Part shown: one piece after another, positions 32,101 to 63,405 of the stretch
Position numbering within the stretch: position 1 is the stretch's first letter
Layout: every line of letters begins with the position of its first letter
NCBI GenBank assembly: GCA_051362555.1
Contig: CM120640.1
Span: 70,224,788 to 70,288,787 of the forward strand
Reading direction: 5' to 3'
Length of the DNA stretch: 64,000 bases
Source of the DNA: Lingula anatina
Taxonomy: Eukaryota; Animalia; Brachiopoda
Translations under genes and position numbers: made by a program
The notes under the pieces: generated by a model
The model's input: only the letters and a program-made list of their open reading frames with translations
The model's database searches: none
Told to the model about the DNA's origin: nothing

Positions 32101-35100
32101 TTCTATAAATCTTATATACTGAGAAACATTTCAATTGTTAAAGGTGGCATTTCATCATATGTACACATACCATTTAGGTTTGGATCCTACTAGCAACAGC
32201 ACTCTCAGAGCAATTCTCTTATGAAGGTTCCAGTGTTCTACTGCCACAGCCACCATCAGCCCTCCTACAAACAGCATGTTGGTATCCTGGAACAACACAC
32301 TTAGAATTTCAACATTTCAACTTTATTTGTCTCACTTTATATTTTCTGCAGAAACAGTAGAGCAGAGAGACTTTAGGAAACTTGGTTACTGTCCTCATTG
32401 TAATGGTTTTTCAGTCAAAATAGCTACAATAATGTCCTTTTTTTTCAATTTACAGGAAGACAAAAAAAAAAAAAAAAAATGGTACCATACAGTTGCTGCT
32501 GGGAGAATTCAGTAGATTTATACATACAGTAAAGACTTGAAAATTCAGTCGGTCTTGAAAATGTTGTTGGAAGACAATTTTTTGCTGACATAATTTTTTT
32601 TCGCTCTCAAAATTTGTCAAATTTGTAAATAGGCTACTTGATAATTTTGAAAAGTTTGTCACCTAATATTGCCTTGTTGGATACATATGAAATTTTCAGG
32701 TTTTTACCATATAAAGGGTACAAAAAGAAAAAGCAATATTTCTCAATTTTAAACATAAGTTTTAAATTGATATTGTTATTTTAGCAGGGGTTCTATAAAC
32801 TTTGTTCAGACTTATCCAAAATGCTTTCAGCAATGTTTTCAGCTAAAAAATTTATTGAATATTAAGATCTGAAATGTTGAAAACTAAACATATCTGAACA
32901 AATTGAATATGTTTAATTCTCTTCTCTGCATTCAGCATTCAATGCAATTTGACTGATTATAAGGATTATCCTTCAAATAACTCATTATAATTGATGATTA
33001 TTGGTAAAATGTTGTCCATTTTCTTCTTTGTTAAATACTGCCTACATTCCTCAGTGACAAAGACAAGTATTGTACTAAAAGTAATGAAAAGATGACCTTG
33101 TTTTGTGTAGGAAAAAATGCATCAAACTTGAAGCTTTGATGTCTAAAACAAAGAATTACTATAAATCAACAAGCTGATTCTTCTTTTTTTATTTGTAAGT
33201 TTATTTCAGAAAAATGTCACGGAATTATAGTAGACAGTTTTTTTCATTTAAAAATCTTTAAGAACTGTGAGTCTTATCCTTTTTTAAGTATAATTTACCT
33301 ACATAATAATTGCAAAGAGGTCAATAAATTTCAAACATATACAAATACCAATATTGTATCTATAGTGTATTATACATAAAAATCTGATTTAATAATGTTT
33401 ATTTTAATCATTTAAGTAGTATGGTTTAAACTATTCATTATTGAAGCAAACATTTTATCCTAATTTTTTAATTTTTTTTTCTAATTTTTTTCTGAAACCA
33501 AACAAAGAAGGCAAAAAAGAAAAGAAAGAAAGAAAATATGACCACCTATAAGAGGCCAGGTTTACGCTGCAGTAGTTAAACCTGTTTTTAGTTAGTGACA
33601 CACACTGAAGCAGAACAATAACTTACAAGATCAGGTTAAACCAGTCTAAAACTGCACGCAAAATTAGACAAGATTTTTTATAATTGTACGCAATTACACA
33701 ATATAAGACTTGAATTTTTTCTCAGTTTTAAATGATATATTTTCATGTGATACTTAAATAATAATTTTAATGGTTTTAAAAAATGATCCCACATCCTTTC
33801 CATTGCACTGACAGAATAAAAATTCATACACATGCTAAAAGTGAAAAGGAGAGGCGTTTTTTACCTTGAGATAATTTTTGCACAGATCTTTAGAGCCCAG
33901 CACTCCCAGTATTGGGAAGAGGACAACAGGCATCAAAGCTGTGGCAGCAAGGGGCAGCACCTCTGTCATCCAGTACACCGCCATAACCAAAACACCAAAG
34001 GCACATCTCCCAGCCTGAAGAAAGAGAATAAGTTTTGATAATATAATATTTATACATACACAAACTCTCTCAGTACGTATTCTGCAAAACAATTACTACT
34101 CTGACTGTGGAATCATTATGAATGGTTATGTTGTATATATCTATGCATATATTGATAAAAAATAAACTCCTACAATTAATCCACTGTTATGCCTGCATCA
34201 AGCTCTTACGACCCGTTTGAGTCCAAATTTTGCGGAGAATCTCATGTGCCATGCAAGTCCTTTATGCGAAATTTCGAGTTCCCACGTATGTAAGCACGTA
34301 CGGAGGATGTTGAACATTTCCAATAGATTCTACAAATAATCTTCGAACAGCGAGGCGGCAAGCGTAACTTGCTTCCTTCGCAAGGAGTTTGCAAGTGAGA
34401 CTTGCGTGGTCTAATATGCACGCCGCAAGCAATGAAGGAGAAAGTGCCCTTTGCATGTTGAATATGGCGCATGCCCTCACATCTATAACGAAGTAAGTCG
34501 AAAACATGGCGGGACTGTGAGTATAAACGGCGTGCTCACGATGCATGCTCGTGTCTCTACAATTTCGTTGTGTAACAATTTTCAAAAATTTTGAATTTTG
34601 CTCAATTCAGATTCTAATATGCATCCAAGAGAGAAGGGAAAGAAGCTTAAAATGCAGAAAAGAAGGTTGAAGGAAGAAGACAGAAAACGAAGCTCTTTAG
34701 CACTGCTTTTTTATTACTTCATAATTTAACAAATTCATCGTTGCCTGAAGAAAAAACATAGCTGCATTATCTTAGATTAAAACTAACTTTGCCTTAAGTA
34801 AATAAATAGATAAATAAATAAAAGGGCGCATAATATATATACGGTAACTACAGTAAAACGATATTAATTTTGCAAAAACATTTCTCAAAAATCACAAGGA
34901 AGAGCTATATATATGCCTACGTACTGTCAAGCTGCACACAAAGTCTGAGATCGACTTCGTGAAATGTTCTTTATTTTCCTCAATATATTTCGAATAAAAT
35001 GTGTCAATTTTGGGTCCCAAGAGGGTGGTGCATCTTGAAAAAAAAAAGGCATTATAGAAAGGGTTTTGAATCCCGAATTATGTTTACAAAGCCAAGGGAA

Positions 35101-36071
35101 TCTATGCCTTGGGGGAGTAGTGTTTTTGCGGAGTATCGGTACGTGGGAGTATGAGTGCGGGGGAGTATGGATGCGGGGATGTAAAGAAGCGGGGGAGTAT
35201 TGGTGCGAGGGAGTATCGGTGCGGGGGTGTAAAGAAGCGGGTGAGTAGCGGTGCGGGGATGTAAAGAAGCGGTGGAGTATCGGTGCGGGGGAGTATCGGT
35301 GCGGGGACGCATAGGCATGTAACCAGGGAATCAGACTGTGACCTTCAGTGCTCTAGTACATGTAACTAAGGGCAATCATGTCTAGACGTAACCAAAATTG
35401 AGCAACTCACATACCAAGCAGGGCACAGTTTCAAAAAGAAGCATACATCGTACAAATCATTGCAGGGAATCTGTGTGGGAGGACCTCCTTTCCACTACTA
35501 TTAAGGCAATCAAAGGCAATCAGGTCTGAAACCAACCAACATTAATTGAGCATTATACAAATACCAAATAGGGCACAGTTTCAACAAACCTAAATTTATT
35601 TGTTATTTAACACAATAAATAATAATCTTTTTCTGTTTCCATGCACTTATAACTCCTTCAAATTTTAATTTGGTTATATAGCTGTATATGCCTTTTTAAA
35701 CAAATATTATAAAATTATGATTTGTTATGAATATTCTGACTAGACAAAAATGCTGGTATGTGCAAGCAATAAATCAAAACATCTCCATACTCAAGTCTCT
35801 ATATGATCGAATAATAGTGGAAATTGAAAAGACAAACTTGTCATCTGGCATATTGAAATATTGTACACCTTTTCACCTGTGAAGATGATTTTCAGTGCAC
35901 TGGGGCAGAACAAGAGTAAATTTACTTCACAGCTGTGACAGTGAAAAACATATTTAAGGGAGAATTATTCATTCATGTCATGCTTTTATAATATGCACCT
36001 ATAATCACCACCCAGGACAGGCATTAAATATACCACATTTTATATGATTATAGGGAGGTCCTAGATCAAGT

Positions 36072-37032: not shown

Positions 37033-38473
37033 CTTAAACCATTAAAGTTTTCTGTTATGATTTTCAGCCCAAAGCACACCTTAGTTCTTAGATCCTGCTG
37101 CACTCGGCTCCACTTCAACACCTACCTATATGGCCTCAACTAACACACCGTGTGCCGAAACACAATGCAAACAGTTTCAAAACACAAAAGACATTTTTTT
37201 TTCAGAAATATACATAAATATATGGCCTGGTAGTATATAATAAAAGGCTTGTTTTATTTTGTGTGTTAGTTTCTTTGTGTTGATCAAAGAAAATTTTAAA
37301 GAGTATGTACTTGTCACAGCCAGTGCAGTGCAAACCATCAAATGTGCTCTGTGTTCATTGTTGTGGTTCTGACCAAAGTAGCGTATAAAGAAAACTCTTA
37401 TTACCTCACGTTTAACAGAATGCATAGGGAATACAGTGACAAAGAAATGGCTCGTCTTGATAAAGAGTGTAAAAATATTAGACATTCACGCTGAATGAAA
37501 GTGCTTCAGTTCTGTTTACTTTAGTGTGAACAATGTAAGTATAAATAGGGATATTTGTACGGAAATTTAATACAGAACTCCACTTGGGCAGCAGCACCTC
37601 ATTTAATATTTAGAAAAGAAAAATGGCAATGCATTACATAATTTAACAAGTTTACTATTAATGGCAAAGTCACAGTATAAGAGCAGAGTCCTAAGAGCAC
37701 CTATGAATAAGCCAAAGCACGAAGGAGTTTTAACTTAGTTTCCCGTCACTGTGCTTAACAGGTTCCCCTCTTTAATGGAGACATTTTACTTACAGCTTGT
37801 TCAATAATTTTATGGAAATATTTTAAAACATTTTTTTCTTTCACTTTCAAAATGAGAGTATTGTGCCGTGGTCTGAAGTTTAAGCTTTTCATTCTAGTTA
37901 TTTACCAATTACCAAATGAACTTCAAATAGTTGTTTTTAAAGACTGCAACATTTTCTGTCTCCAACTCCACATCCTCCTGGCACAAGGTGGTATTATTTA
38001 ATTTACCAAACACACAATGACAAGGCATTTGTACCATAACAAAGCTTTAAATATTAAACCTTGCTTAAGGAGACATCTGACCTGTTTCACATCCAGCAGT
38101 ATATATTTTAGAGAATGAGTCTGTAATAGTACACTTTGAGAGAAGGACAGCTTTATAGTCTGGCTATTACATAAGAGTCACCTGAACCAAGAAGTTCTCT
38201 TTACAACTTCCTGTCTCACTAGAGCTTTCAGGCTTGACATGGCGGAATAACAAACACAACAGCAGGTCGCATCAGTGCATAATTATAAATCACATGTAAC
38301 CCCCCCCCCAACTTATATGCTTCTCAAGTTGCATAAAAAATAAACATAAAAATCAAAGAAAAATTTAGAAAAAATTATCAAATTAAGGTTTTCACTTACA
38401 CCTGCATTTTAACCCTTAGGGAGACAAGGGCGTCATTTACAGCCAGGCAGTAACTTGAGGGGAGGGGGGTTAA

Positions 38474-38810
38474 AGGGATAATAACTCTTCGTATGACATC
38501 TATATTTCACAATAAAAACATTGTGAATAACTCATAGAAATATAATATATTCTGTTTTACCACAAAAACGGCAGTCATTGCTTTTATTCTGATATCTGAG
38601 CTCGTCTTTAGACCATGTGACCTCCATTGATGGCTATACTCTGCTAAAATCTCTTAAGAGATTTTAACAAAAAACCAAACTTTTTAGAAAAAAACCAGGG
38701 ACTTACTTTGAAAGTAAAAATGGATTCATTAACCATTGGCAAGTATGGGAAAATTGTTGTTTACTCCAGGAAAATTCACTTTTTGGCTGAAACGAAGAGT
38801 TATTATCCCT
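38474..38810 (+). mobile_element. ~337-bp MITE with AGGG termini at a TTAA site (Kolobok/T2-like), copy 1
   Basis: Perfect TIR AGGGATAATAACTCTTCG...CGAAGAGTTATTATCCCT. TTAA on the left, ATAA on the right. Reverse complement of 59947-60284. Confidence 0.85.
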
Positions 38811-39528
38811 ATAACTTATTTGGCACATATTAGTGCACTGCCCCATTGCCGACACCAATAGAGGTCACTAGCGTCTGTGACATAATGGATCCTTTGCTCT
38901 CTTTTGACAGCATCCCAAGAAAGGTTATGTTTGTGAGCACATGGACCAGTGTCACCAGTGCTACAGCCCCATAATTTGAGAAAACTTTTAGACAAAGATT
39001 TGATCCACTTCAGTGGAGATGAAGACTAACAAGTCTACTTAAATTTATCAAATAAGTCTGAAACCTCAGCCACATCTTCAGTGTTATAAACCAAAGCCAA
39101 TATTTCATTCAATTGAACAATTTGACTGGGCATAAGTACACCAAAGTTGTTCAAGTTAAAACAGGCAAGAGCTCTGTTGTGAAGCCGGGCCATTGGTCTT
39201 TGTGGAGAGTCAAGAAGATTCAGACGGCATAATTAAAACATCTCCTTAACACTGGGGTTTGAAAATGAACATGGGGGGAAATGTGAAATACTAAATCAAA
39301 AAGTAACTGTATCAATTACCAACTTGAAGGCCGATGCTTCTTGACCTTTCACTGATGTGAACCATGGATGTGTTCCTTTTTTTTTTTTTGGTTAAATATT
39401 AAAAGATTTCCAATACATGCTACTTGGTACTAAAGAAACCAAGAAAAAGACTGCAAAATATCATTATTTACACATTTATTTTCTTTTTTCATGATTTTTC
39501 AAAGAGTTCAAAAGTTATGACCAATATT

Positions 39529-42500
39529 TTAAGAAGTCTCAGCAATGGATTCCTCTGTGTGCTTGCCCTTGTCAGCCACCTGCCTGGACCTGGCCTTGCG
39601 CTCCAGAATTCTCTTCCTGTCCTTGTCCAGCTTCAGTTTCACAATCACCACCTGTAACCAAAGATGGTCCCAGCCATTAGAAATGCGAATAGAAATATGA
39701 ATAGTGTTTTAATAAGTTCACTATACACAGCCTTATATTACAACTGTCCAATAAAATTTACTTCAATTTTAGCCAGAATAGTAAAACAGTTTGTGCCTAG
39801 CAAATATTTGGCAAAGTAAAAATGTTTTACAGTCCATTTCACTGGGTGGCAAATAAACAAACCGGGTAGATAAAATGTCCTGAATTCTAAACACATTTAT
39901 TATTCATGAAAATTTAATTAAACCGTATAATCAAACCGTATATCCAAATTCCACCTCTGATATTTATTTCGGTCCTCTCTAACCTCCAATTCAGGAAATG
40001 ACGTAACCGCAGAGGTCGTATTGTCCAATGGCATGGCTTCTTTTTCGTAATTGGAGGTTAGAGAGGACCGAAATAAACATCAGAGGTGGAATTTGGATAT
40101 ACAGTTTGATTGTGCGTATGCCATGCACGGAATTTACAAACGAGCGACGGGATGATGCAGCCTGCAGTATTTGCGGTAAGCGTGCCAAGTTTTAGGCCGC
40201 TCCGATGCCCGGCAGTATTTTATTTCGATTATTATGTTGAAAATGGTTGAGTTTTGTTTCACAAGCTCACTCTATTTTATTGTCTCTATGGAGGTATATG
40301 GGGACTTTACGACATTCGGTTTGAAGGCTTTAACCACTTGTTATAGTTTATTTTTGCATTGTGTTGGATTAATGTGGCAGTCTAAGGTTGTCCTAGGTAG
40401 TTTTCAAGTTTATGAACCCGGTTTTAATATCATTTAGCAATTTACGACAATCGTTTACTATCCAATCAAGGTGACAGCCGAGCGTGCACCTGACATCTTC
40501 ATAATTGTCAAACTATGTTTATAAACTTAAAAATCTGTTTTTTTGGACAGCAACAAACCTTAGATGGGTGAATGCCGACGTGAACAGTTGCACCATTGGC
40601 CTTCTCTCTCTGAATCCTCTCAATGTAGATGACAAATTTCTTACGGTAACACTGGACAACTTTGCCCACTTGCTGCCCCTTGTAATGTCCCCTTACAACC
40701 TGGAAAAAATAATGAGAAAATCAATAAACAATTAGTGGGTGCCTGTATACCAAGATGTAATAATTGTAGTCTTGACATATGTATATATCAGCAGCTTGAA
40801 AAACTTAAGCATGTTGTGACTTTCTGACTATTATATGACCTGCCAAAATTTTGAATCAAACAGCTGAGCAGTTATCAGTAATTTTTGAGGTGTCCAAATA
40901 AGAATACACGAAAGGATTTTTTTAATTCAGAAAAGGATTGGTTTGTTTATATGCATAAATTTTGCATGTGTATTACAGTCTGTGTTGCTTCTGTGTTGTG
41001 TTTTCTTGAATGAATTATGCCAAATAACAGGTTGGTCCCTATGCAAGAATCCTTCCCCTATTGCTCTAGTCTGATAGTCCACGCAATAAATAATAAGTGG
41101 AATGATAAGACATGAAGCAAGTTACCCTGCTGTCTTCATTGGGAGTTATATAACTAGACAGCTATTCTGATGTATGATGACACAAGGAATGGAAATGCAA
41201 GGTTCACTGCCTTTTATCGTGTTGTGACAGATTGCGCAGGGTAAGGAAATAACCAGACATGCTGAAAACTTTTCAGAAGGGCTGGACATTTAGACCGGCA
41301 GTAGTAAAAAAATTTGCCAGATTGTATGGATTTTTGCCGGACCAAAAATCACCCTTTTTGTTTGAGACGGATACTACGATTAGGTAGCTTACTTTGTTTG
41401 TCAATGTGATCAGTTAGAAATGGAAGGGGAAAACGATTTGGGTTTTATATTAGTGAAGTATGTCTAATGATGACTGTAAATTCAAAATGTCAGCTCTTAA
41501 AACTCTTCTCGGTCCTTTTGACTGACCACCTCCAATTTTTTACCTGTCCAGACAAATTTTGTCGGTCATGACCGATCGGACAGACAGTTTCAGCATGTCT
41601 GCTAAATTGTCTGCAGACAGCAAATACAAAGAGCTAGTGTTCAGTTTTTAACACTTGATGTGACGTGATATCAACATCCACAAATAGAATTGCAAAGTAA
41701 TCTTAACTAACACACTACTTCCAAGTTTTAAACTCATCACATTCTATCCCTTTTAACAAAGAAAAAATGGTACATAGCAGTTTCACATCATAAAAATATA
41801 TGGCATTATTTAACATTTCTGGTTTTTGCCTTTCTTTGAAATATCCGATAATGATTAAAGTACAGACATTAGCATTTTCCTTTAAGGTTAGGTATACTAC
41901 CTGCATTTGAAAATGTCCTAAAGTCATATGTTCTATGTTGACATATCTTGCACACCTTCTTATCTTTCACAAGATAAAAACCAAGGTAAAAACCATTAAA
42001 CCCCTCAAATAAAAAGTACCTGATGTAAATATTTTCTTCTAACATGTTCAGGAAGTCAAATCATTTAATTAGAAATTAATATAAAATATCAAATCCCAGT
42101 GAATTCATAGGTTGAGCAAAATTTGAGAGTTGGGTGAAAATTGCTCTTTTTTTCAAGGATAATTTTGATTTGGCAGAGCTTCTTTTAACCTAATGAATTA
42201 TTTTAAAATTGGTAATTTTTCAAAACTTTTGTGACTGGGCAATTTTTACTGTGAACTGGCCATTTGTTGCAGAAACACAGCTCATCACTCAGATGGTGAT
42301 GACAAAAGCAGACAATACACAAGGCAATCCATACAATATACTTCAATACAGACAGAATGCAATGGTCCTCAACCTTTCCAAATAAAATCACAGGGAGTGA
42401 CACATAAGTTTAATTCAACGCATGATATTTATTTATTGGGTATTTTAATATATTCAGTCTATTTTACTTAAGGCAAAATAACTTCACTAGAAACAAGCAA

Positions 42501-42732
42501 CTGACTCCATCTTGCACTTCGTTCTCAGACAGAGATATGTCATCAATGAAGTTATATTTCTTACCGTAACTTCGTCGTCTTTTCTGATGGGGATGCTTCT
42601 CACGTTGTACTTCTGCCTCAATTCTTTAGACAAGGGGGCACTCATGATCTTCCTACGGATATGAGACGGTGCATTGAAGTGCCTCTTGCGGTTCTTCCTC
42701 CGCGAGGAGGTGACCATCTTATTGAACTTCAT
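39529..42732 (-). CDS. RPL26: 60S ribosomal protein L26 (uL24), 143 aa
   Basis: Exons 42732-42565 ([56 protein letters not shown]), 40699-40559 ([47 protein letters not shown]) and 39651-39529 ([23 protein letters not shown]...ETS*). Sum 432 nt, canonical GT-AG. Confidence 0.97.
41254..41601. mobile_element. MITE-like element with 14-bp TIR in an RPL26 intron
   Basis: CAGACATGCTGAAA...TTTCAGCATGTCTG. No TSD found. Confidence 0.55.
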
Positions 42733-42993
42733 TTTGTGAGCTGAAATATTATGATAAGGAATCAAGGATATTTAAGAACCATCTACAATATAAGGTTTGC
42801 GTGAGAGGCAATGTAAAGAAGCCGGGGACTAAGGCAACATATCTCTGTAACAGGAGTTAGGTCTGCAGTGAAATTTCATCAGATATATAGCTTTATTAAT
42901 TCTGATTAAAATAAGTTCTGAAAATGTGGCAGATGTCTTTCCATTCGGCAAGATTTCAATCGATGTATGTCCTATACATATGAATTTGCCTAC

Positions 42994-43019
42994 CTCCAAG
43001 ATAGCTACACAGGAAAAGG
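42994..43019 (-). promoter_or_regulatory. RPL26: Non-coding first exon of RPL26 starting with a 5'-TOP/TCT motif
   Basis: Minus strand reads CCTTTTCCTGTGTAGCTATCTTGGAG|GTAGG. The matching acceptor TTTCAG at 42741-42746 lies 8 nt upstream of the ATG. A pyrimidine-tract start plus a tiny UTR exon is typical of ribosomal protein genes. Confidence 0.7.
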
Positions 43020-43030
43020 CAGACCACAGG

Positions 43031-43041
43031 GCATTGTGGGA
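43031..43041 (-). promoter_or_regulatory. ZNF143/Staf-type SBS motif in the RPL26-ACADSB bidirectional promoter
   Basis: GCATTGTGGGA (reverse complement TCCCACAATGC) matches the TCCCAnAATGC core and sits between the two divergent gene starts. Confidence 0.5.
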
Positions 43042-43103
43042 CTTTTTCATCTAAACGACCTTGACAGAAACATCAACAAGGTTACGGTACTACACATGGC
43101 AGA

Positions 43104-46100
43104 ATGTTTACTTCGCTTGTAAGTGTTTTTTTCCCTTGTCTGATAAGAAGTTAACCTGAGCAAAATTAAGGTGTTTTTCCTAACACAACAACTTTGTTCC
43201 TAGCATTTTGAACATATAGTTTATAACTGCTTGACATAAAGGGGAGAAAATAGGATAAAGTCAAAGGCCTCGGTCCACACAGTCACAGTGTAATGAGACA
43301 CTTATGTAATGGCATCTTTTTGTAACGCGCAAAATGCAATCCGCAATTCCATGGTTCGTGTCAGATTTACGTAAAATAGCTCCAAGAAACCCCAAGGACA
43401 CATAATGACCAGTTAAACTGTTTGTAGCGATTTGGGGTGAGTGCAGAAAAATCACCGACCAGGCCAGGAATCGAACCCGGGACCCCTCGCTTACAGGGCG
43501 AGTGCTCTTACCTACTGAGCTACCCGGCCGGTTCTACCTGTCCCTGGCACTACACTCCTCCCCCCCAAATGCCAAAAGACGCGAGCCCTATCTCGCAACA
43601 CCGCTGCCACCATTGTAGCGATTTGGGGTGAGTGCAGAAAAATCACCGACCAGACCAGGAATCGAACCCGGGACCCCTCGCTTACAGGGCGAGTGCTCTT
43701 ACCTACTGAGCTACCCGGCCGGTTCTACCTGCCCCTGGCACTACATGTTTATTTGATGGCGCTTGCTATCTACATATGATATCTACATCTCAACTTCCAA
43801 ACCATCTCGTTTGGCTTGCGGCCGACCCCCTAAATCGGCAATCCTCATCTGACTCCGCAACCTCCATAGACATCTGGGTAGTTCCGAGTGCGTCCTCCTA
43901 GCTCTCCGAAACGGTCTCCCTTAATCTCCTCTCATCAAACTCCCCAATATTACTTCTGAACGTCTTATATACTTGCGATTCAATGCTTCCAAATGTTACA
44001 TTCTTCGTGTTTGCCAGAAATCTTCATTCTTTTAACAACTGGATAACACGGTACTCAAAAATGTCCAGACTAATCCATACTTAGGAGTCATGCTTTCTTC
44101 TGACCTGAAATGCCTTATGGCCAACTCACATAAACAACTTGTGTAAAAAGGCCAGTTGCTTACTAGGATTCATTAGAAGGAATCTATGCCACAGTCCAGT
44201 GATCTAACGAAGATCAGCATACATAGGTCTTGTTCGCTCCACTCTAGAATATGGTGCCATTATATGGGACCCCTACAAAAAAACAGACATTGATAAAATG
44301 GAAAAAATTCAAAGAAAGGCTGCACGGTTCATCACTGGGGATTACAAGTCTCAATCCCCTGGTAGTGTCACCTCCATGCTGAAATCACCAGATCTTCCAC
44401 TACTGCAGCACCAGAACTTTTCTTTTCAAGGTGGTTGAGGGATTGGTACCAGCGATATCTCCTGACACTTACTTCATACCAGTCTCCAACAAACGTCGCA
44501 TAAGGGCTTTGATTTTGAAAATATTGTGAATAGTTCTACAACAGTCGCTGCTTCCACTTACACACAAAATACACACCTGTCAGAAAAAACTCTCTCTTTG
44601 TCAGAACAGTTTCCGATTGGAATGAACTCAGTGATCAACAAGTAAACGCTAAAACTGTGGAAGGCTTTAGATCAGGCCTACACTGTGACTAAGGCTCTAT
44701 TCCCATAGATTTAAGATCGATCTATCCCCGCGGGGAGTCTCACTAGATTACTTTCAGATAATCCGACTTAAATGTCCGTCCCGCCTACTACAAGCTGTAA
44801 GAGGGTAATTAACTTTCGTGTCCGCCCGGCTGACAGCTATTTAGCGTGAACCCCCAGGGAGTTAGGTCGATCTAAAGTAGGTCGATCTAATCTATGGAAA
44901 TGGGGTGTAAGTTTCCCATACGCTCTTTTCTATCCGTCTATCTCATACCAGTAGTGGTCTTCTTAGACGTACTAGTATATGGACAGATACAGATACAAAT
45001 CTCTTATCTAAGGTGGATTCAATGCTGCACTATTTCACGGTGCATACTAATTTTAATTACTCAAATTGCATACATCCACTTGCGTTATATCAAAAGCACA
45101 TTGCAGTTGTGTAGCAAAGTTGCATTGTAAAGGTTCATTTGAACTAGAAACTTAATACTGGTATTCATGTTTTCTGTGATTTACAGAGCATGCTATTGCA
45201 TGGTAATTGCTCTGGTTTGTCATTTATGCTAGGTGAAAACCGTGCAGGCATGGAAAAATTTTCATTTGTGAAATTGTTAAAATGCCAGGTTTTGGCTGAT
45301 TATCCATTATTGATATAATGATGAATTTAAACAGATTTTCTCAAAATTTATCTCTGTCACCAGCTAAATACTCATTTTCAGCAGTATGAACCCATGGAGG
45401 TTAGAGACAAGGGGAAAATTGAGAAGTTTTTTTTTTGGCAATTTGAGTTTCAATCTATCACAATTGAGCACAATAGAGATTATTTATAAAGAAAAGTAAA
45501 CCCAACCACTAGAGTTATTGTTCAGACTCAAATTGAATTTTTTAAAAGTTTTAGTCTCTTGAAATATTTGAAAGTATCCCAAGACTAAAGATATATCATG
45601 GTATTATTTTTTTCCAGCTGAGAAGGGTTCTTCAACCAAAAAAGATAATTCAGACAAGCAGGAGGAACTTATTTGCCTCACAGCAATTGTTTAGTCCAAC
45701 AAAATCTGACAACTTGCCAGAGCACAGTGATGAGGTACTCCATGCCCCATTGTACATGTTCACAGAAGAAGAAACAATGATGAAGGAAACAGGTATATGC
45801 CTTCCTCTCTCTCTCTCTCTCTCTCCCTCCCTCCCTCCCTCCTTTCTTCTCTCTCTCTTTCTCACACACATCTACTGGAATATATTGTGAGTAATTCATT
45901 TTAATTGATTATTCAGTTTTTCACCACTCATTATTAACCAAATGGTTTTCATAGTCAGATGGTTGATTTTAATTTTTCAGTTGTGGATCAAGACACCTGG
46001 AATGTGATACTTGAAATATTCTGGTCAAGAGTGAATTATTCTGTTATAAGTCAGAAACAATTTTAAATTTGTTTATATTTAAATATCACTTAAAATGCTG

Positions 46101-48422
46101 GGTGCTTGCTTTGGAAAATTTATTTGTACAAATTTTTATAAAAAGCAATGTTTTGGTAAATGTTAATTGTTGTTATCATTATTTTCTATTTGAACTAGTG
46201 GCGAAGTTGGCAAAAGACAAGATTGAACCCTTGGTGAGAGAGATGGATGAAAAGTCACAAATGGACCCCTCAGTTATCAAAGCATTGTTTGAAAATGGGG
46301 TAAGACGAAGTTATTATGCAAATTAACCAGTTTCAGGAGTATATTAAATAGATCACAATATTGAATACAGTTTGCTACCTACTGTGAAGAACATATTAAC
46401 AAAATCTGAAAGTTTTCATAAATTTGTAGCTTATAATGTACATGTAGGTACTGGGGGGTTTAGACATTGTTTTTGTTTAACAGTTGGGTACTTATAAGTA
46501 CAACCATTATTTATATCATTACAAATACTTGAACAGTGGATGGTTATGAATCACTTTGGTGGGACAATTTTTTATTTTTGTGCATGTTTTTAAATTATTA
46601 TCATTGTTATTATTGTTGATGTTGTTTCTTTTTTTTTTTGTTTTAATGATTAACATTACCTGCTATGAATAGCTCATTTCAGTCAACTGAACAAAAGTAA
46701 TGAATAACTTTTTGAATCTGCCAGTTGATGGGTATTGAGATAGATGCAGAATATGGTGGCACCCATTCCACTTTCTTCTCCTCCATACTTGTGATAGAAG
46801 AACTGGCTAGGGTGGATCCCGCAGTGAGTGTGTGCTGCGATGTACAGAATACTGTTGTCAACGCACTGTTACTTAACTATGGAAACCAAGAACAGAAACA
46901 GAAATATTTGCCCAGACTGGCTACAGACATGGTGAGTTAACAATTAGTTTTTCTTTATAATTTTAAGTAATCTCAATTTCTCAATTTGTTCACTTTATTA
47001 TTTTTTTTACCTTGAATTAAATTTTGTTGATGTGGTATTTTTTTGCAACATTTATTATCGAATGAAATTCCAAGAGAATACTTTTAAATTGAAGGAATAC
47101 TATATATGTAACCAGATGAAAGCTACATTTTCTTACAGATTGGCAGCTTTTGTTTGTCTGAAGCAGAATCTGGGTCTGATGCCTTTGCCCTGAAGACGTC
47201 GGCTGTGAAAGTGGGTGAAGATTATGTGATAAATGGAAACAAAATGTGGATTACAAATGCAGAGCATGCTGGAGTCTTCTTAGTCATGGCAAATGCAAAA
47301 CCCACGGAGGTACTGGTGCTAGTATATGTAATGTTTTAGACATTTGTTTCCTTATCATAGGTGTCTTATTTAAATGAGTCATTAAGTTCTATTTCACTTA
47401 AAAAACAGTTGAATGGGGATTAATGTTCCAGGAAATTTAAAGCGAAATGTCATTAATGTAATGGAAAGTTGGATTGAGTTTTATTTAAATGATCATTCCA
47501 CTGTTCTCCTCCTCTCTCTCTTAAAGGGTTACAAGGGCATAACCTGTTTTATAGTTGACAGAGAGACTGATGGAGTGACTATTGGGAAGAAAGAAGATAA
47601 GTTAGGAATAAGAGCATCTAGTACCTGTCCTGTGCATTTTGATCATGTCAAGGTAAAGCAATGGGAATGTTCAGAATTAATAATACAGTGTTGCCTGGCA
47701 TGGCCACTGACTACAAGAAATTCTGTTTCTTGCATGTTTTCTCTACATGTATGTAGCTGTTTGTTATCTGCAGACTTTTAATACATGATAATTATATTAT
47801 ATGTTTGATAGTCTTAAAGTGAAATAATATACACATTGCAATTTGAAGTAATTGATTTTTTTAAATTTAATTATTATACTTTGGTTAACATACATCTTAT
47901 TTTTATCTTACAACATAGTCATTATTATTATTTGAGTAACAATTGCAGGTTCCAGAGAGTAATATAGTTGGCACATTTGGTCATGGATACAAATATGCAA
48001 TTTCAATGCTGAATGAGGGAAGAATAGGAATTGGTGCACAGGTAGGAGCTTGATTACCTTGATGTCTGTTTGGGTCTTAGTAATAACCTGCCCGGTAGCT
48101 AATTCATTGCACACTTCTCAGGTATTATTTGGAAATATCACAATACTGATGAGATATAAGTTTGTATTGAGGTTATAGGAACAATATTTTCCTGTGATTT
48201 ATATTAAAGATGCTGGGTCTGGCTGAGGGTTGCATTGACCATGTCATACCATACACTATGGAGAGGAAGCAGTTTGGAAGAAGCATATGGAATTATCAGG
48301 TATGGAGACGAAGTGTCACTGGATGGTTGAATTCACCAGTTCTGAGAGAAATCTGGCAGGATAAATATGGATGAAGAGCATGCATTAAAACTAGAATTTA
48401 AGCTCAATTACATCATCATCAT

Positions 48423-48477
<55 letters not shown>

Positions 48478-49934
48478 GTGTCTGTATTTGTAGCATTTGT
48501 CACTGCCAAATGTGGAAAATATAATAGCTTGAATTAAGTATGGCAGTCATTATATGATGGAAACATTCATTCACCAAAGTTGTTTTATACGTAATTTCTT
48601 GAAGATTTACAAATGCAAGATAAAAATACTTTGAATATTAGTAACATAGAATCAAACTAGTGGTTAATTAATATTTATGGTACGTTTTCACTGGGTTATA
48701 GGCCATGCAGCACCAGATAGCAGAAGTCCAGACAAAGATTGAGGCGGCAAAACTTCTCATTTATAATGCTGCACGGCTCAAGGAAGCTGGGATGCCTTTT
48801 GTGAAGGAAGCGTCAATGGCTAAATATTTTGCCAGTGAGGTAGAGTAACAGAGCAGTAGTATTTTAAAAACGTCTTTGCATCAAGGTTTACCAGTATTAC
48901 AGTGGAAAGCATGCTCATATCAACTTGATTGGTTTAGTTGATGTAGTCTGCATATGCACAGTAGATTCTGTAACTGGCAGATTCATTGCCAACGTGTTTG
49001 TTTGTTTATACCCAGTACCTGTATTTTTCTTTTATTTGTTGTTTTTATTTGACCTCCTATGTCTTGTCATGATACAGATTTTTTTTATATATCTGGAGTT
49101 ATTTTCTCATGCATAATTGGGAACTTCTAATTGGAGTAACTGGTGCCACTCAAATATTTATCAATCACACAGGACATTCTGAAACTTCCACTCAAATAAA
49201 CACCACAGGAAGGTGCCCAACAACTTTTTTTTATTCACTACCGCACACGTGTACATGTATCTCCACCACCAACATGAAGTCCCCACTATCCTTCCAACAT
49301 CTCCCACCAGAGGGACGACACAATCCTGTGTCACCTCCACTGCAATCAAGATAGCCCCAATTGTAATACCTAACAATATTTATCTTAAACCCATTCTCTA
49401 CCGTTATTTTCTTCTCCTCTACCAGGTTGCTTCTGTGACCACCTCCAAGTGTATTGAGTGGATGGGGGGTGTGGGATTCACCAAGGACTACCCCGTGGAG
49501 AAATACTACAGAGACTGTAAAATTGGTAAGAACAAGTTGAAGAACAATATCAATGGATTGTATTGTCACATTTGTACCTGTACTGTCTTACTGTCTGTAT
49601 TACTGTATGCTTTTAATAGGACAGGAGAACATTATTATCATGTTGCAACTTAGCAAGCACATGCACTTTTTATTTGATGTAATTATTTGTCTATAAATGA
49701 AATATATATAAATAAAATATATTTTAATATACACCTGTCTCTTTAAAATGTATATTAAAAGAAGTCATAAAGAAAAAGGCTTTTTGTGTAACCTTGGTAT
49801 CACCAACTAGCTGCTTTAGAGTGACAAGTTACTCACATTTTTCCAAAATATTTCTAGGGACAATATATGAAGGTACTACCAACATCCAGTTGAATACCAT
49901 TGCCAAGTGTATTGCACAGGAGAGACAGGGATAA
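43104..49934 (+). CDS. ACADSB: Mitochondrial short/branched-chain acyl-CoA dehydrogenase, ~430 aa, 11 exons
   Basis: Exons: 43104-43118 (MFTSL), 45618-45792, 46199-46299, 46725-46931, 47139-47309, 47527-47652, 47949-48041, 48210-48299, 48702-48839, 49426-49525, 49858-49934. Sum 1293 nt. Motifs [115 protein letters not shown]. Basic N-terminal transit peptide. Exon 1 is the least certain. Confidence 0.93.
43456..43529 (-). tRNA. tRNA-Thr(TGT)-like sequence inside the 3' LTR of the TRIM (probably not a functional tRNA gene)
   Basis: GGCCGGG TAGCTCAGTAGGTAAGAGC A CTCGC-CCTGTAA-GCGAG GGGTC CCGGG-TTCGATT-CCTGG CCTGGTC G folds into a cloverleaf with A and B boxes. It has C instead of the invariant U33 and is followed by TTTTT. 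Confidence 0.6.
43647..43720 (-). tRNA. tRNA-Thr(TGT)-like sequence inside the 5' LTR of the TRIM
   Basis: Same cloverleaf as 43456-43529 with one substitution in the acceptor stem. Confidence 0.6.
43800..44690 (+). mobile_element. Decayed, truncated CR1-group (CR1/L2/Crack-like) LINE ORF2 3' end
   Basis: Frameshifted fragments [69 protein letters not shown] and [14 protein letters not shown] are typical of the post-RT C-terminus of this LINE group. The 5' boundary is approximate. Confidence 0.82.
44693..44907 (+). mobile_element. 215-bp PIF/Harbinger-like MITE, copy 1
   Basis: TAA TSD, imperfect TIR (...ATTCCCATAGATT / AATCTATGGAAAT...). Near-identical to 61469-61683. Confidence 0.85.
48427..48475. 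repeat. (CT)n microsatellite
   Basis: About 24 CT units. Shorter (CT)n tracts at ~45805 and ~54558, and (TA)n at ~50784. Confidence 0.95.
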
Positions 49935-52605: not shown

Positions 52606-54033
52606 TCAGTCTGGGGTGCTCTCAGCGCCCCCTAGGTCCATGTTACATCGCAAGTACCTGCACTCCTTTAGCGCAGTTAACTTTGTGTCGTCACCAGGAG
52701 GAGAGGTCTTTGTAAAATGTTTATTGTGTTTTTCTTGCAAGGACTGTCTATATAAGGGAGGGAGAAACTCGTGTTTATCTGTCGATATATTTTGGTCGTT
52801 TATAAAGGAATTGTTGGGCTTCAGATTGGACCTCTCAACCGTTTTTTCTCTCAGTCTCTGTAATCTGTCCTCTATGGCCCTCGCTCGTCCCTCTAAGGTA
52901 ATCTGCGCCAATCTCTCAGCGGTGTTGCCCTCTTCACAGCTCTGTCTGCGGCCATAGGATGCCCCTGGTTGCCTTATCCATACAACTGACCGGCTTTCTT
53001 GCACCGGGGTAAACACCATGCCCGGCATTTGCTGTGATTCTGGAGAAAAACCGCTGCCCGGAGGCGTCACTGAACGTTGATTGAATACCACCCCCTTGGT
53101 CCTGGTCGTCGTGGGGTTTGTGTAGGCCCGCCCTCTGCTAACGGGGGGACCGAAAGCGTGATCAGCATCGTTTTCTGTCCATTTCCTGTTGTTTTGCTTT
53201 TTCTTTAACACTGCACCTTCAGTTGGATTCTGTTTATTCTCGTGGTCATTGTGTATGTGGTGACTTCTTGGACGACTTTGGCTGGGTTCAGAAGCAGATT
53301 TATCGTTATCTAAAGGCGAGATATATCTTTCTGTCCCTGGTGAAAAGGTAGTTTTCCTTGATGCCTTTCCCATTTCCAGTTTGTCTGTGGTTTCTATTTT
53401 TACTTGTCTACCTCTCTCGGGTATTCTGTCATTCATTGCTGTCCGGTTCTGAGAGGTGGTATCCTTGATAGTGTGAGATCGCTCAATATTTCGACGCGAC
53501 AGCAAACGCGCCCGCGCGGCTTGCATCAATTCCGGCGAGGTGTGCGACCTGTGACGTGTGTAGTCCATGTCCGAGCCATCATGACTTCGTAAAGAACTGG
53601 AATGCTTTGCTACCATAGGCGAGAGCGGCACATTCAGAATTTGCTGGGTCTGTAACCTGTATAGCTTTGGCCTAGTGGAAATGGTTGATGGGGTTTCTGT
53701 GCTTGGTTCGAAGTTCGTTGATTTTCTTTCTCTGTCCTCTACATCAGAATCCATACTGTTTTGTCTGCCGGAGAAACTGATGCACCTCTTTCGTTCATAT
53801 TTTTCCAACTTTTTCACATATTCCTCCTGACTCCTCATCTGAATTTTCATCTCGCGATCGTGTCTCTTTTGCATGGTCTTTTCCTGCTTGTCTAGGACGA
53901 CTTGCTCACGAGTGTTCAAAACTTGAAACATTTTCCTCCCGGCGTTCCTGTTCTGCACGGGATCGGAGCAAAATCGGGGCCCTCTAGCGGCCATATGGCC
54001 CATGTTCGTGTCACTTTGAGTGTTGTCTTCCAT
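52606..54033 (-). CDS. Uncharacterised intronless 475-aa hydrophilic protein (N-terminal coiled coil, disordered middle, C-terminal LKECRYLR motif)
   Basis: 1428-bp uninterrupted ORF, GC-richer than its flanks, ATG in AAGATGG context. No family recognised with confidence. Confidence 0.8.
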   Translation of the reverse strand: MEDNTQSDTNMGHMAARGPRFCSDPVQNRNAGRKMFQVLNTREQVVLDKQEKTMQKRHDREMKIQMRSQEEYVKKLEKYERKRCISFSGRQNSMDSDVEDRERKSTNFEPSTETPSTISTRPKLYRLQTQQILNVPLSPMVAKHSSSLRSHDGSDMDYTRHRSHTSPELMQAARARLLSRRNIERSHTIKDTTSQNRTAMNDRIPERGRQVKIETTDKLEMGKASRKTTFSPGTERYISPLDNDKSASEPSQSRPRSHHIHNDHENKQNPTEGAVLKKKQNNRKWTENDADHAFGPPVSRGRAYTNPTTTRTKGVVFNQRSVTPPGSGFSPESQQMPGMVFTPVQESRSVVWIRQPGASYGRRQSCEEGNTAERLAQITLEGRARAIEDRLQRLREKTVERSNLKPNNSFINDQNISTDKHEFLPPLYRQSLQEKHNKHFTKTSPPGDDTKLTALKECRYLRCNMDLGGAESTPD

Positions 54034-54555
54034 CTTTTTTAAACAACGATGCTTTAGTAGAAACGTTTATCACTAGACACTTTTATCCACAATATTATCT
54101 TTTTCAACCTCGTTTGAATGGTAGAAGAACAAGACTGAAGCGGATGTCCCTTTGTTTGTTCGGTGACTGTACTGGAAAGTAACAGAACAGTTTTGTTTAG
54201 TACATCAGCTCGTTCGGCAAAGAAAACATTTCACTAAAAAACTGGCAAGTTTTGTTACTGTGCCGAGTGTGTGTATATACATACAAGTGACTTTATTTCT
54301 GTGGCTGCCGGTTGCCAGATACAGCATAACGGAGAAGGTTTACATAGAGCCACAAGTCAGGGAGAGTCAACAAAGTTTTTTTTTCAACGTGATAAAAATA
54401 ATCGCAGTAAGATTAATGTAACGTGATTAAATGAGCGAAAAAAAAAACTGACGATGAAACAAAACTCACGTAACTATTTTTACATAATTATAAATAAATA
54501 TGTAATTTTGGTGTTTTAATTAAAACTGGATCAAATGTATACCCACTTTAGAATT

Positions 54556-59195: not shown

Positions 59196-60503
59196 TTATT
59201 TCCTTCCTATGCCAAATCTAACTCGATGCACGCGATGGGATGGAATGTCACCTTGGCTGAGCTGTCGTAGTCGGGCTATTAAATCTTCAACTTTGTGCTT
59301 GCCACGCTTGGATAGGTATCCTGCAAAGAGAAACCAGTCAGTCAATTTCAAAATGGGGAGGGGGGGGGGGGGGGCTCTTTTTCTGAAAAAGTGTATCTTT
59401 ATATCCCCTTAGGCCTACTAGTAAAAACTGAAAAATGACATGACCAAACTTTGATTCAGAGCGGACCTTTTCGAACCCTCGACAACCCCCCCCCCCCCCC
59501 CCGTATTCCTACGGGACAGAGAAGTAACCTTCCTTTGCAAATAACTTTATACTAGGAATGTATGTATGAAGCGAAAAGTTACTCTTGTTACAATATTGTC
59601 CCCCATACGACTGTAAACTCAGGTAGACAAGATGTATTTGGAATATATCCACGCTAACTGTGTTTTAAAGTTATTTCAATAAAATAGATTAAACTCAACC
59701 ATTCAATTTTACCAATGAAACAATAACTTCAATCTGAGGATTTGTTTTCTATAACCAGCTTAGTTTACCGCACTTGGGGACACATAATTTTACCATATTC
59801 TATACACACAGAGCTCGAGCGTTTTACCATCTTCTACCCCGTTTTATGTCATTCATTTGATGCATACACAGTTCTACATCATTGCAAAGGCAGTCAGTTA
59901 TGATAGCGTATTTATGATGTATTCTGAGAACATTTACAGACCTTAAAGGGATAATAACTCTTCGTTTCGGCCAAAAAATGAATTTTCCTGGAGTAAACAA
60001 CAATTTTCCCATACTTACCAATGGTTAATGAATCCATTTTTACATTCAAAGTTAGTCCCTGTTTTTTTTCTAAAAAGTTTGGTTTTTTGTTAAAATCTCT
60101 TAAGAGATTTTAACAGAGTATAGCCATCAATGGAGGTCACGTTGTCTAAAGACAAGCTCAGATATCAGAAAAAATAGCTATAACTGCCTTTTTTGTGGTA
60201 AAACAGAATATATTATATTTCTATGAGTTATTCACAATGTTTTTATTGTGAAATATAGATCTCATACGAAGAGTTATTATCCCTTTAAACAAATGAGGCA
60301 CTTATGCTAAGATTAAATTAACAACTTTGTAAAGGCAAACCGTCAGCAATTGATAGCCGGGGTCAGTAATAAGTTATAGTTGCACCATGTTCATATTTCA
60401 TAAAGTGTCAATTTCCACCCACCTGATCTCACGTTCACAGCGTCCTGGGGTATCAGACTGTCTCCGTATTGGTACGGATTAACACCGGCGTAAGTCAATT
60501 GGT
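59196..60503 (-). CDS. 3' part (last two exons) of a putative amidated neuropeptide precursor
   Basis: Exon 60503-60423 (TTTGCAG acceptor, GTGGGT donor, phase 1-1; QLTYAGVNPYQYGDSLIPQDAVNVRSG) splices in frame to exon 59320-59196 (TTTGCAG acceptor; YLS-KR-GKHKVEDLIARLRQLSQGDIPSHRVHRVRFGI-GRK*). The signal-peptide exon was not identified. Confidence 0.68.
59947..60284 (-). mobile_element. ~338-bp MITE with TTAA TSD (Kolobok/T2-like), copy 2
   Basis: Same TIR with an intact TTAA on both sides. Lies in the intron of the candidate neuropeptide gene. Confidence 0.87.
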
Positions 60504-61468
60504 CTGCAAAGACAAAATATCAAATCTCAAATCACTGTCTCTTAATAACGATGTCTGTGTTCTGGGTTGAAAATGAAACCGAATCAGACATATCGATATG
60601 GTGTACCTGGTTTGATCCTCAATTATTGATCTTAGTTTTCATATAATCCACGCTGACTTAAAAGTATATGTAATTAACAGTTACAGGTAGCGTCAGTGCA
60701 AGAGCTACTAGTAATATTTAAAATTTTCTGGTAGAAACCAGAAAAATTACTTAATTCACATCAAAACTTGATCAGAACTTAAAATGACAATTTATGGAAA
60801 AAAAATCATAACTCCCCCTAGGAGGGAATAGGCCAATGCATTAAACTCCTTTTGTCCAATGAAAACTGACTTGTTAGGGCCCACTGTAGTAGATTAATGA
60901 TGTGAAATGTTCTTCATAAAGTGCAGTTTGTCGGCGTGCACAGGTGGTGTATGTGGGATTTCTGGATTACTTAAGAGATAATGTGAACGCTGTCATTGTT
61001 AATGTATGACCATGGCTATAATATATAGCACAGTAGTATCAGCGGAGGACATGTAGCTTGCATACACAAAGGGGTGTGACCTGGTGTGCATAAGAGGATT
61101 CGGAGAAGAAATAATCATGATCAATGAATACATTAAGCATAATTTGATAGATTTTTTTTTTGAGGAAATTGCGCGCCACACCAACTCATTAGTAAGCCTT
61201 GTATAAAATGTTACAATACTTTCTATCATAGCTCTCTAACGGTTGATAAAAATGCTTGGCGGGTTAAAAAAAATTCTTAAGTTCCTTTAAAATAAGGCAG
61301 TTTTAATATTAATATAGGATACGTAACGAATACACTACATACGTAAAAGGCAAGTGATGTCAGATGTGCCAGCTAAAGATTAACGTCATGAAGATTGTAA
61401 CAAGGAAAGGGATTGGCATTCGTTGAGAAACTCATTGTCTCTGTTGAGTCTGTTTTTAAAGTGTCTTA

Positions 61469-61683
61469 GGCTCTATTCCCATAGATTTCAGATCGATCTA
61501 TCCCCGCGGGGAGTCTCACTAGATTACTTTCAGATAATCCGACTTAAATGTCCGTCCCGCCTACTACAAGCTGTAAGGAGATAATTAACTTTCGTGTCCG
61601 CCCGGCTGACAGCTATTTAGCGTGAACCCCCAGGGAGTTAGGTCGATCTAAAGTAGGTCGATCTAATCTATGGAAATGGGGTG
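61469..61683 (+). mobile_element. 215-bp PIF/Harbinger-like MITE, copy 2
   Basis: TTA TSD. Only a few substitutions relative to 44693-44907. Confidence 0.85.
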
Positions 61684-62579
61684 TTATATTTTTATGAACT
61701 TCTGTTCGACAGTGCGTATTTTTGTCTCGCGTATGCGTCCTTTTAAAACGGTGACTGTAATGTCATTGGCAGAATGATGAGGAGTGCTGAAATGTTGTCC
61801 CAGTGGCACGAAGTGTTTTTGTTCTTTATTGTGCTACAGTGTTGCCTGATGCAATATTTTAGTTTCTGACACGTGTCTCCAACATTCATCTGATTGCATT
61901 TTTCACAGTGGACTTCTCTAGAGATCACGTTACGTGGATTATCTGGAAATCATGACAAGTAGGCGTAACAGTTGGCTTGAATCCTTTTAAACTGTCAATT
62001 TGTCTCAAGGAAAAAACAACTGCAAAGCACTGCGTCTCCAGTTACCGTAGAGATATATCGCACAGTGCTCACTCCAAAATAAGTGAGTGAATTGTTTAGA
62101 TTTAGCTTTTTCTTCTTATGTCCCCTTTCATTTGAGAGGGCACGGAAAGACAAGGCAAAGACACTTGTCTGCTTTGGACAGTTTTAGTTACCTCTAAGAG
62201 TTTTAATAGTGTAAGATCCAATATATGCAGGGCTCTTGTTTCAATGTGTATTACATGTAACAACAAGTTAGTAGCTCAGAAAGAACATCTTTTTTGTAAT
62301 TCAAATGTATAATACTCTAATTCACATGGTGTCGTAACCTTATCTCCAGTACTTGTTTATGTCTTAAACAACTTCTCATGGTCCCATTCAACATGTCTTA
62401 AGGACAGTGGGATCAAATAAGAGACTGCGAGATCTTCATTAGCACATTGTAATACGATATTTATCAGATATGCAATATGTCCGCTGTTACAGTGTAACAA
62501 AGGCTTCTCCGATTCTTGGAAGTAACACTTAATTAAAAAAAAATCTTTTCCTCAGTATTCACGAAATAGTTATTTCTTA

Positions 62580-62796
62580 GGGTGCATTCCCAGAGATTTA
62601 GATCGATCCAGAGATTTAGATTTAGATCGACCTGGGGCTTCACGCTAAATTGCACTCAGCCGATCGCGCACCATAGTTAATTACCCCCTTACAGCTTTTA
62701 GTAGGCGGGACAGACGCTTAAGCCGACTAAGCTGACAGTAATCTAGTGAGACTCCCCACAAGGATAGATCGATCTAAAATCTATGGGAATGGGGTC
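62580..62796 (-). mobile_element. Diverged inverted member of the same MITE family
   Basis: TTA TSD. Its reverse complement aligns by eye to 61469-61683 (GTAGGCGGGAC, CACGCTAAAT, CTAGTGAGACTCCCC, GATCGATCT). Confidence 0.78.
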
Positions 62797-63161
62797 TTAT
62801 ATTAAATCGGCTACTGCGCGTATTTTTATGCTGATACACCTCAATGTAGTGATTATCGTCGCAGACTTAAAAGAAACATTTGTGTAGAATATACAAATCA
62901 GTTATTTAAAATATTCACCAGATATCCTTGGAGTCCCTATTCATCGTGAATTTAGAGGTTTGAATTAGAACCAAACGCTGATAGAGCTAAGTAACTGACG
63001 AATGCCTGTCGTCGTAATGTCTAATGCAGTATATTGTCACAGTGCCGTGTACTAGAGCTTCAGAGGGGTTTTCACTCGATTTTCCAGATATTGATTAATC
63101 GTCTTCTTGTTATTGTGAGTGTTATTGTGAGTGTGTGTTTTTGCACTGGTATGTCGACTTA

Positions 63162-63385: not shown

Positions 63386-63405
63386 TAATACCATTGGCAC
63401 TCTAG

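What the first reader, a model, noticed from the sequence alone, without database searches (positions are those of the whole stretch)
43423..43745. Complete 323-bp LTR retro-element whose LTRs are built around a tRNA gene
Seen: TSD TGTT | 132-bp LTR | 59-bp interior | 132-bp LTR | TGTT. The LTRs end TG...CA and differ at 2 of 132 sites, so the insertion is young. Read on the minus strand, the interior starts 1 nt after the 5' LTR with TGGTGGCAGCGGTG and ends with the purine tract GGGGGGGAGGAG abutting the 3' LTR. Each LTR holds a 74-nt tRNA-Thr(TGT)-like cloverleaf with A/B boxes, followed by T5. Established: the PBS is complementary to the 3' end of tRNA-Leu(AAG/TAG)+CCA. Plant Cassandra TRIMs carry 5S RNA in their LTRs, and as I recall tRNA-bearing TRIMs with 4-bp TSDs in animals have been named Helenus. 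The class is therefore known but obscure, and this family may be unannotated. Inference: it is a Pol III-driven, SINE-like parasite of a Gypsy-type LTR element, using one tRNA as promoter and another as primer. The T5 tract upstream of the PBS raises the question of how a full-length template is made (read-through, tandem arrays or circular RNA).
Basis: partly seen in the sequence, partly recalled or inferred. Interest (0 to 1): 0.85.

Follow-up and report, generated by a model that had tools for sequence, protein, structure and literature searches.

The report
Known tRNA-bearing mini-retrotransposon copy (Helenus-1_LAn)
This is an ordinary, recently inserted copy of an already published family of tiny jumping genes (Helenus-1_LAn) whose two end repeats each carry a tRNA-like sequence that likely serves as its promoter.

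Summary
The guess that the family is unannotated is wrong. Kojima 2024 (PMC10886601) lists Helenus-1_LAn from the brachiopod Lingula anatina with LTR 132, interior 59, total 323, TSD 4. Compared by eye, this copy matches that consensus at 320 of 323 bases. Public DNA contigs show many other copies and a form of the site without the element. Likely mechanism (inferred): Pol III starts at the 5' LTR tRNA promoter, sometimes reads through the first T5 and stops at the second, so the tRNA body is the R repeat; a Gypsy element supplies RT and integrase. The short T run follows the tRNA-like part in most Helenus consensuses I read, and the paper's text does not discuss it. That class-level question is the only open point. 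Novelty: already known.

The parts
43746..43749 (.). Target-site duplication TGTT at the element's 5' side
   Evidence: a single TGTT in the element-free form in runs X3 and X6
43614..43745 (-). 5' LTR, 132 bp, TGTAG...CTACA; reads identical (132 of 132, by eye) to the Helenus-1_LAn-LTR consensus
43647..43720 (-). tRNA-Thr(TGT)-like part of the 5' LTR with A and B boxes (LTR positions 26-99); likely Pol III promoter; C at position 33 of the anticodon loop, G discriminator
   Evidence: (57.8 bits)
43638..43642 (-). T5 run, likely a leaky Pol III terminator upstream of the PBS
   Evidence: role inferred
43555..43613 (-). 59-bp non-coding interior; 58 of 59 identical to Helenus-1_LAn-I (one C-to-T change at 43574 makes a T4 run in this copy)
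43599..43612 (-). Primer-binding site, 14 nt complementary to the 3' end (with CCA) of the tRNA-Leu-AAG printed in Fig. S2 of the paper; same start as Gypsy-57_CaAu-I
43555..43566 (-). Polypurine tract abutting the 3' LTR
43423..43554 (-). 3' LTR, 132 bp; 130 of 132 identical to the 5' LTR and to the consensus
43456..43529 (-). tRNA-Thr(TGT)-like part of the 3' LTR
   Evidence: 61.2 bits
43447..43451 (-). T5 run of the 3' LTR, predicted end of the full-length template RNA
   Evidence: role inferred
43419..43422 (.). Target-site duplication TGTT at the element's 3' side

Best explanation
It is a young full-length copy of Helenus-1_LAn, a published multi-copy non-coding mini LTR retrotransposon, which is likely transcribed by RNA polymerase III from the tRNA-like part of its 5' LTR and likely copied and inserted by the proteins of a Gypsy element. 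Shown: family identity, structure, TSD, other copies, an element-free form of the site. Inferred steps: (1) TFIIIC binds the A and B boxes and Pol III starts at or a little before LTR position 26; (2) many transcripts stop at the first T5 as an RNA of about 83 nt, some read through PBS, interior and PPT and stop at the T5 of the 3' LTR, giving about 274 nt whose two ends share the tRNA body, which acts as the R repeat; (3) host tRNA-Leu primes minus-strand DNA at the PBS, the PPT primes the plus strand, and two strand transfers rebuild both LTRs; (4) a Gypsy integrase acts on the TG...CA ends and leaves a 4-bp TSD.
For: Identity: 320 of 323 bases match the Helenus-1_LAn consensus by eye, and all four sizes match Table S1. 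Mobility: summed contig depth on the element bins is 609-12,273 against 46-138 on the unique left flank in 4 of 4 DNA runs (not a copy number), and contigs leave the LTR ends at 43614 and 43745/43746 into unlike flanks. Runs X3 and X6 hold a contig that crosses the site without the element. Gypsy link: the paper finds PBS similarity of animal Helenus only with Gypsy, and Fig. S2 shows Gypsy elements with this Leu PBS. Leaky stop: by eye a T4 run follows the tRNA-like part in 26 of 26 complete fungal LTR consensuses of supplement part 1 and a T4-T6 run in 15 of 17 animal LTRs shown. Read-through of Pol III terminators for several hundred bases is common in human cells and frequent in yeast below seven T (passages of bioRxiv 10.1101/2025.10.17.683076). 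Cassandra transcripts run from the small-RNA part of the 5' LTR to that of the 3' LTR.
Against: No direct sign of a Pol III transcript: in 4 RNA runs depth on the element is at most 18 per bin, on both strands, with no pile-up of starts or ends; the libraries are polyA, oligo-dT or unspecified, so this is a weak test. The same preprint reports 4 T as the optimal human terminator, so T5 in an animal need not be very leaky. Two of 17 animal consensuses lack the T run. No autonomous partner was found; no genome was held. The element-free contigs may come from another copy of the repeat that forms the left flank.
Confidence: 0.9

Rival explanations
1. Same element, but the template for copying comes from Pol II: read-through from host genes or flanks, or from tandem arrays, with the tRNA part a passive relic of an old SINE insertion.
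For: RNA reads on the family come from both strands, and some run into unlike flanks (tables 2 and 7), as expected for copies inside host transcripts. Tandem arrays are reported for the zebrafish Helenus LTR-11_DR and multi-unit transcripts for Cassandra (passages of PMC7215508).
Against: A and B boxes are conserved across Helenus, and a T run sits behind them in most consensuses read, which a passive relic would not keep. Only 25 bp of LTR lie upstream of the tRNA part, little room for a Pol II promoter.
Confidence: 0.15
2. The template is a circular or multimeric RNA, as in retrozymes.
For: The LTR ends can pair with each other in the predicted fold. Retrozymes are non-autonomous LTR elements that use circular RNA (title of a reference).
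Against: Rfam finds only tRNA here, no ribozyme, among matches to E = 1 in 42000-45500. No go-back joint on the element is listed in 4 RNA runs, at low depth. A linear read-through RNA already has the repeated ends that copying needs.
Confidence: 0.04
3. A tandem pair of working host tRNA-Thr genes, or an element that supplies working tRNA-Thr.
For: Full cloverleaf, ARAGORN call, Rfam 58-61 bits.
Against: TSD, TG...CA ends, PBS, PPT, family match and an element-free site. The anticodon loop has C33 where elongator tRNAs have U33 (the rule is recalled). The acceptor stem has 2-3 G-U pairs. Helenus-1_LAn is not among the families that Fig. S1 lists as able to encode a tRNA, in the part I read.
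Confidence: 0.03

Closest known systems
Helenus-1_LAn (Kojima 2024, PMC10886601, Data S1 and Table S1; Lingula anatina)
   Same: LTR 132, interior 59, total 323, TSD 4; 5' LTR 132 of 132, 3' LTR 130 of 132, interior 58 of 59 identical by eye.
   Different: Three single-base transitions in this copy (43463, 43541, 43574); nothing structural.
Helenus-2_LAn and Helenus-3_LAn (same paper)
   Same: Same Leu-type PBS start, G-rich PPT, TGTAGTG start, CGCTACA end, T4-T5 after the tRNA-like part.
   Different: Diverged LTR and interior sequences; different anticodon-loop letters.
Cassandra (plant TRIM with 5S rRNA) and Ajax (nemertean TRIM with 5S promoter)
   Same: Short non-coding LTR element with a Pol III-type small-RNA sequence in each LTR (TRIMp3 of the paper).
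   Different: 5S rather than tRNA; Ajax has a 5-bp TSD; only Cassandra has shown Pol III transcription.
tRNA-derived SINEs (SINE2)
   Same: tRNA-derived internal promoter in a non-autonomous retro-element.
   Different: SINEs have no LTRs, PBS or PPT and move by target-primed reverse transcription with a LINE.

Membership tests
Helenus (TRIM with tRNA-derived LTR) | Two LTRs, non-coding, shorter than about 1 kb | tested here: met
   323 bp, two 132-bp LTRs, 59-bp interior
Helenus (TRIM with tRNA-derived LTR) | tRNA-like sequence with A and B boxes inside each LTR | tested here: met
   ARAGORN and Rfam RF00005 in both LTRs; TAGCT and GGTTC fit the box motifs named in the paper
Helenus (TRIM with tRNA-derived LTR) | PBS next to the 5' LTR, complementary to a host tRNA 3' end other than its own tRNA part | tested here: met
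   14-nt match to the tRNA-Leu-AAG end printed in Fig. S2, an insect tRNA; the host's own tRNA-Leu was not seen
Helenus (TRIM with tRNA-derived LTR) | PPT next to the 3' LTR | tested here: met
   12-nt purine tract at 43566-43555
Helenus (animal type) | 4-bp TSD | tested here: met
   TGTT on both sides; single TGTT in the element-free form
Helenus (TRIM with tRNA-derived LTR) | Dispersed multi-copy family | tested here: met
   High summed contig depth and unlike flanks at the LTR ends in 4 of 4 DNA runs; no copy number, no TSDs of other copies read
Helenus-1_LAn | Sequence identity to the published consensus and sizes 132/59/323/4 | tested here: met
   320 of 323 by eye; Table S1 row 187
TRIMp3 (TRIM with a working Pol III promoter) | Pol III transcription from the LTR shown | tested here: inconclusive
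   Low both-strand depth, no start or end pile-up, unsuitable libraries; also unvalidated in the paper
Gypsy-dependent TRIM | Autonomous Gypsy partner with the same PBS and termini in the same genome | not testable with these tools
   No genome held; Gypsy elements of other animals share the PBS
Functional cytosolic tRNA-Thr gene | U33 in the anticodon loop (recalled rule) | tested here: not met
   Loop reads C32 C33 then the anticodon

The most novel reading that the evidence does not exclude
Helenus elements replicate by a tuned leaky terminator: the short T run kept behind the tRNA-like part in fungal, animal and plant families lets Pol III pass the 5' LTR some of the time and stop in the 3' LTR, so the tRNA body itself is the R repeat for strand transfer and every copy also sheds a pre-tRNA-like RNA of about 83 nt. 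This 323-bp family would be a minimal test system for the first proof of a Pol III-made LTR retrotransposon genome in an animal.
Probability: 0.5. Interest if true: 0.45.

Novelty: already known. Interest (0 to 1): 0.15.

Why it matters
As a discovery it matters little: class and family are published with a consensus. Practically, such copies are called as high-scoring tRNA genes (2 of 2 tRNA calls in this window) and inflate tRNA counts, as the paper shows for rust fungi (Table 2). The open class-level point is that Pol III transcription of Helenus has never been shown and the T run before the PBS has not been explained in the texts I searched; the leaky-terminator model makes a cheap, sharp prediction (RNAs of about 83 and 274 nt). 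This copy also sits about 400 bp upstream of an RPL26-like promoter and may be polymorphic, which would allow a natural test of any effect on a neighbouring gene.

Tried and rejected
No own genome is held, so copy number, solo LTRs, tandem arrays, other TSDs and the Gypsy partner could not be searched. No RNA holder was listed by the run index; that blank is not used as evidence. RNA runs of the same species label (4 of the 9 offered; about 6, 6, 6 and 25 in 100 of each read) could not test Pol III transcription. Reads covering 43541 (9 of 9 in X12, 12 of 12 in X16) and 43574 (8 of 8, 2 of 2, 18 of 18 in X12, X15, X16) carry the consensus letter, so they come from other copies or alleles and say nothing about this copy. 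The CRISPR-DR8 Rfam match at 44348 (20 bits, gathering 39, E 0.7) is taken as chance. Pfam scans failed twice; one search covered 3 of the 7 stretches, and the decayed RT-like stretch at 44208-44435 gave no family. The original Cassandra paper (PMC2311327) is not held. The look-up of earlier findings by sequence gave nothing. An age in years was not computed: no substitution rate is on hand. Other joints (to 43938-43947) have short sides, involve flanking repeats and were not interpreted.

Full report
Observation. The structure is as described. A script on the window gives TGTT at 43419-43422 and 43746-43749, two 132-bp repeats at 43423-43554 and 43614-43745 that begin TGTAG and end CTACA and differ at 2 of 132 sites, and a 59-bp interior. 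On the minus strand the interior starts with one A and a 14-nt PBS and ends in a 12-nt purine tract. ARAGORN finds 2 tRNA genes in the whole window, both inside these LTRs; Rfam RF00005 scores them 61.2 and 57.8 bits. Each is 74 nt (LTR positions 26-99) and is followed after 4 nt by T5. No further copy lies in the window.

Identity. A paper search put Kojima 2024, PMC10886601, first. I read its whole main text with figure legends and tables, parts 1, 9 and 10 of the 11 parts of its supplement and search passages from parts 7 and 11; the figures themselves are not held. Data S1 holds Helenus-1_LAn. Compared by eye with the output, the 5' LTR (43745 to 43614) is identical at 132 of 132 bases, the 3' LTR at 130 of 132 and the interior at 58 of 59: 320 of 323. 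Table S1 lists the family under Lingula anatina with LTR 132, interior 59, full length 323 and TSD 4. The window is therefore very likely Lingula DNA, and the family is annotated; the paper says its consensuses are also in Repbase. Fig. S2 prints the tRNA-Leu-AAG end to which the PBS is complementary over 14 nt, together with Gypsy elements that share it; the paper does not list the LAn families in that figure, so the Leu assignment for this family is my reading.

Copies and empty site. No genome was held. I laid contigs of 4 DNA runs (of 10 listed holders) on 42600-44600. Summed depth is 46-138 on the unique left flank and 609-12,273 on the element bins; the tool warns that this is no copy number. 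Contigs leave the LTR ends at 43614 (X1, X3) and 43745/43746 (all four runs) into flanks that disagree with each other (agreement 0.53-0.63), as expected for dispersed insertions; the loose-end table was cut. In X3 and X6 one contig each joins 43423 to 43781 without the element, with one TGTT and 18 letters between that match the right flank but for two small deletions and a substitution (depth 53 and 72, in the single-locus range). X1 has a contig with the filled right junction (43717-44104) and a loose end that fits the empty form. This suggests a polymorphic insertion. It is not proven, because the left flank (about 43336-43422) is itself a high-copy repeat and the empty contigs could be another copy of it. 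X1 may be the window's own source and is not independent support.

RNA. Four RNA runs were laid on 42551-44050. They confirm the neighbouring minus-strand RPL26-like gene (Pfam PF16906): depth 249-2,191 on its coding exon, an intron at 42741-42993, and a start near 43020, 403 bp from the element's 3' end. On the element depth is at most 8 in sense and 18 in antisense, with no pile-up of starts or ends. All reads over this copy's changes at 43541 and 43574 carry the consensus letter, so they come from other copies or alleles. These polyA, oligo-dT or unspecified libraries cannot test Pol III products.

Mechanism. Shown: family, structure, mobility. From established LTR biology as the paper states it: tRNA priming at the PBS, PPT priming, strand transfer through R, integrase with TSD. 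From the paper: animal Helenus share PBS types only with Gypsy and make 4-bp TSDs; Pol III use is inferred from box conservation and is not validated. My inference concerns the T5. A Pol III RNA from the 5' LTR that stops at the first T5 is about 83 nt and lacks the PBS; one that passes it and stops at the second is about 274 nt and carries the tRNA body at both ends, which is all that R must do. By eye, a T4 run follows the tRNA-like part in 26 of 26 complete fungal LTRs in supplement part 1, a T4-T6 run in 15 of 17 animal LTRs shown (the 2 misses are Helenus-2_SyJa and Helenus-2_SyUm) and T4 in the one plant LTR. Passages of bioRxiv 10.1101/2025.10.17.683076 report common read-through for hundreds of bases in human cells and frequent read-through in yeast below seven T, which fits a leaky stop; the same passages T optimal for human termination, which cuts the other way for animals. 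In the Helenus paper's main text 'terminat' occurs twice, both about Cassandra, and 'TTTT' not at all. A search for Helenus or TRIMp3 from 2024 on listed 20 of 21 papers, mostly butterflies; of the TE papers I opened only a meeting report, which merely cites the paper; PMC13570524 and PMC10946416 were seen as listings only. So I found no test of this point in those searches; unread supplement parts and subscription papers could hold one. For Cassandra, multi-unit transcripts attributed to reading through LTRs are reported (passages of PMC7215508).

Is the tRNA part a working tRNA? Probably not. The anticodon loop has C33 where elongator tRNAs have U33 (recalled rule), the acceptor stem holds 2-3 G-U pairs, and the family is not among those that the paper lists as able to encode a tRNA in the part of Fig. 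S1 that I read.

Verdict. Real, correctly described, and already known down to the family. Confidence in the identity is about 0.98, in Gypsy mobilisation about 0.85, in the Pol III leaky-terminator step about 0.5-0.6; the 0.9 given for the best explanation weighs identity most. Interest 0.15.

Noticed in passing
window 39532-43020 (-): RPL26-like gene: Pfam Ribosomal_L26 on the exon at 42490-42771, further exons near 40511-40720 and 39532-39708; short non-coding first exon 42994-43020 beginning with a pyrimidine run, intron 42741-42993. The element lies 403 bp upstream of its start, on the same strand.
   Followed up: partly
window about 45700-49930 (+): Exons of an acyl-CoA dehydrogenase gene (Pfam Acyl-CoA_dh_M at 47112-47336; ACADSB-like by recalled resemblance), head to head with the RPL26-like gene; the element lies between the two.
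   Followed up: partly
window 43336-43422: The left flank is itself a very high-copy repeat (summed contig depth 6,190-18,658 in the bin 43337-43403); the element seems to have landed in or at the edge of it. Not identified.
   Followed up: no
window 43940-44640 (+): Decayed, frameshifted tail of a LINE-like reverse transcriptase gene by recalled resemblance, moderately repeated; no Pfam hit on the one stretch scanned.
   Followed up: partly
window 7137-30114 and 14018-14380 (-): Repeated exon-like pairs (D6, D8, D9, D10) and a translation that looks like an SLC13-type transporter (recalled resemblance) suggest tandem paralogous transporter genes.
   Followed up: no
window 44685-44908, 61461-61684, 62631-62799, 2633-2814, 3628-3865: A palindromic repeat family of about 220-240 bp in several copies, MITE-like.
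   Followed up: no
window 63156-63645: Nest of inverted repeats with arms up to 97 nt, foldback- or MITE-like.
   Followed up: no
window 38470-38814 and 59943-60288: Two 95%-identical copies of a repeat of about 345 bp in opposite orientation.
   Followed up: no
window 35095-35318: 16-bp-period G-rich minisatellite.
   Followed up: no
window 52606-54066 (-): 486-aa open frame, S/T/R-rich and likely disordered; the Pfam scan that included it timed out.
   Followed up: no
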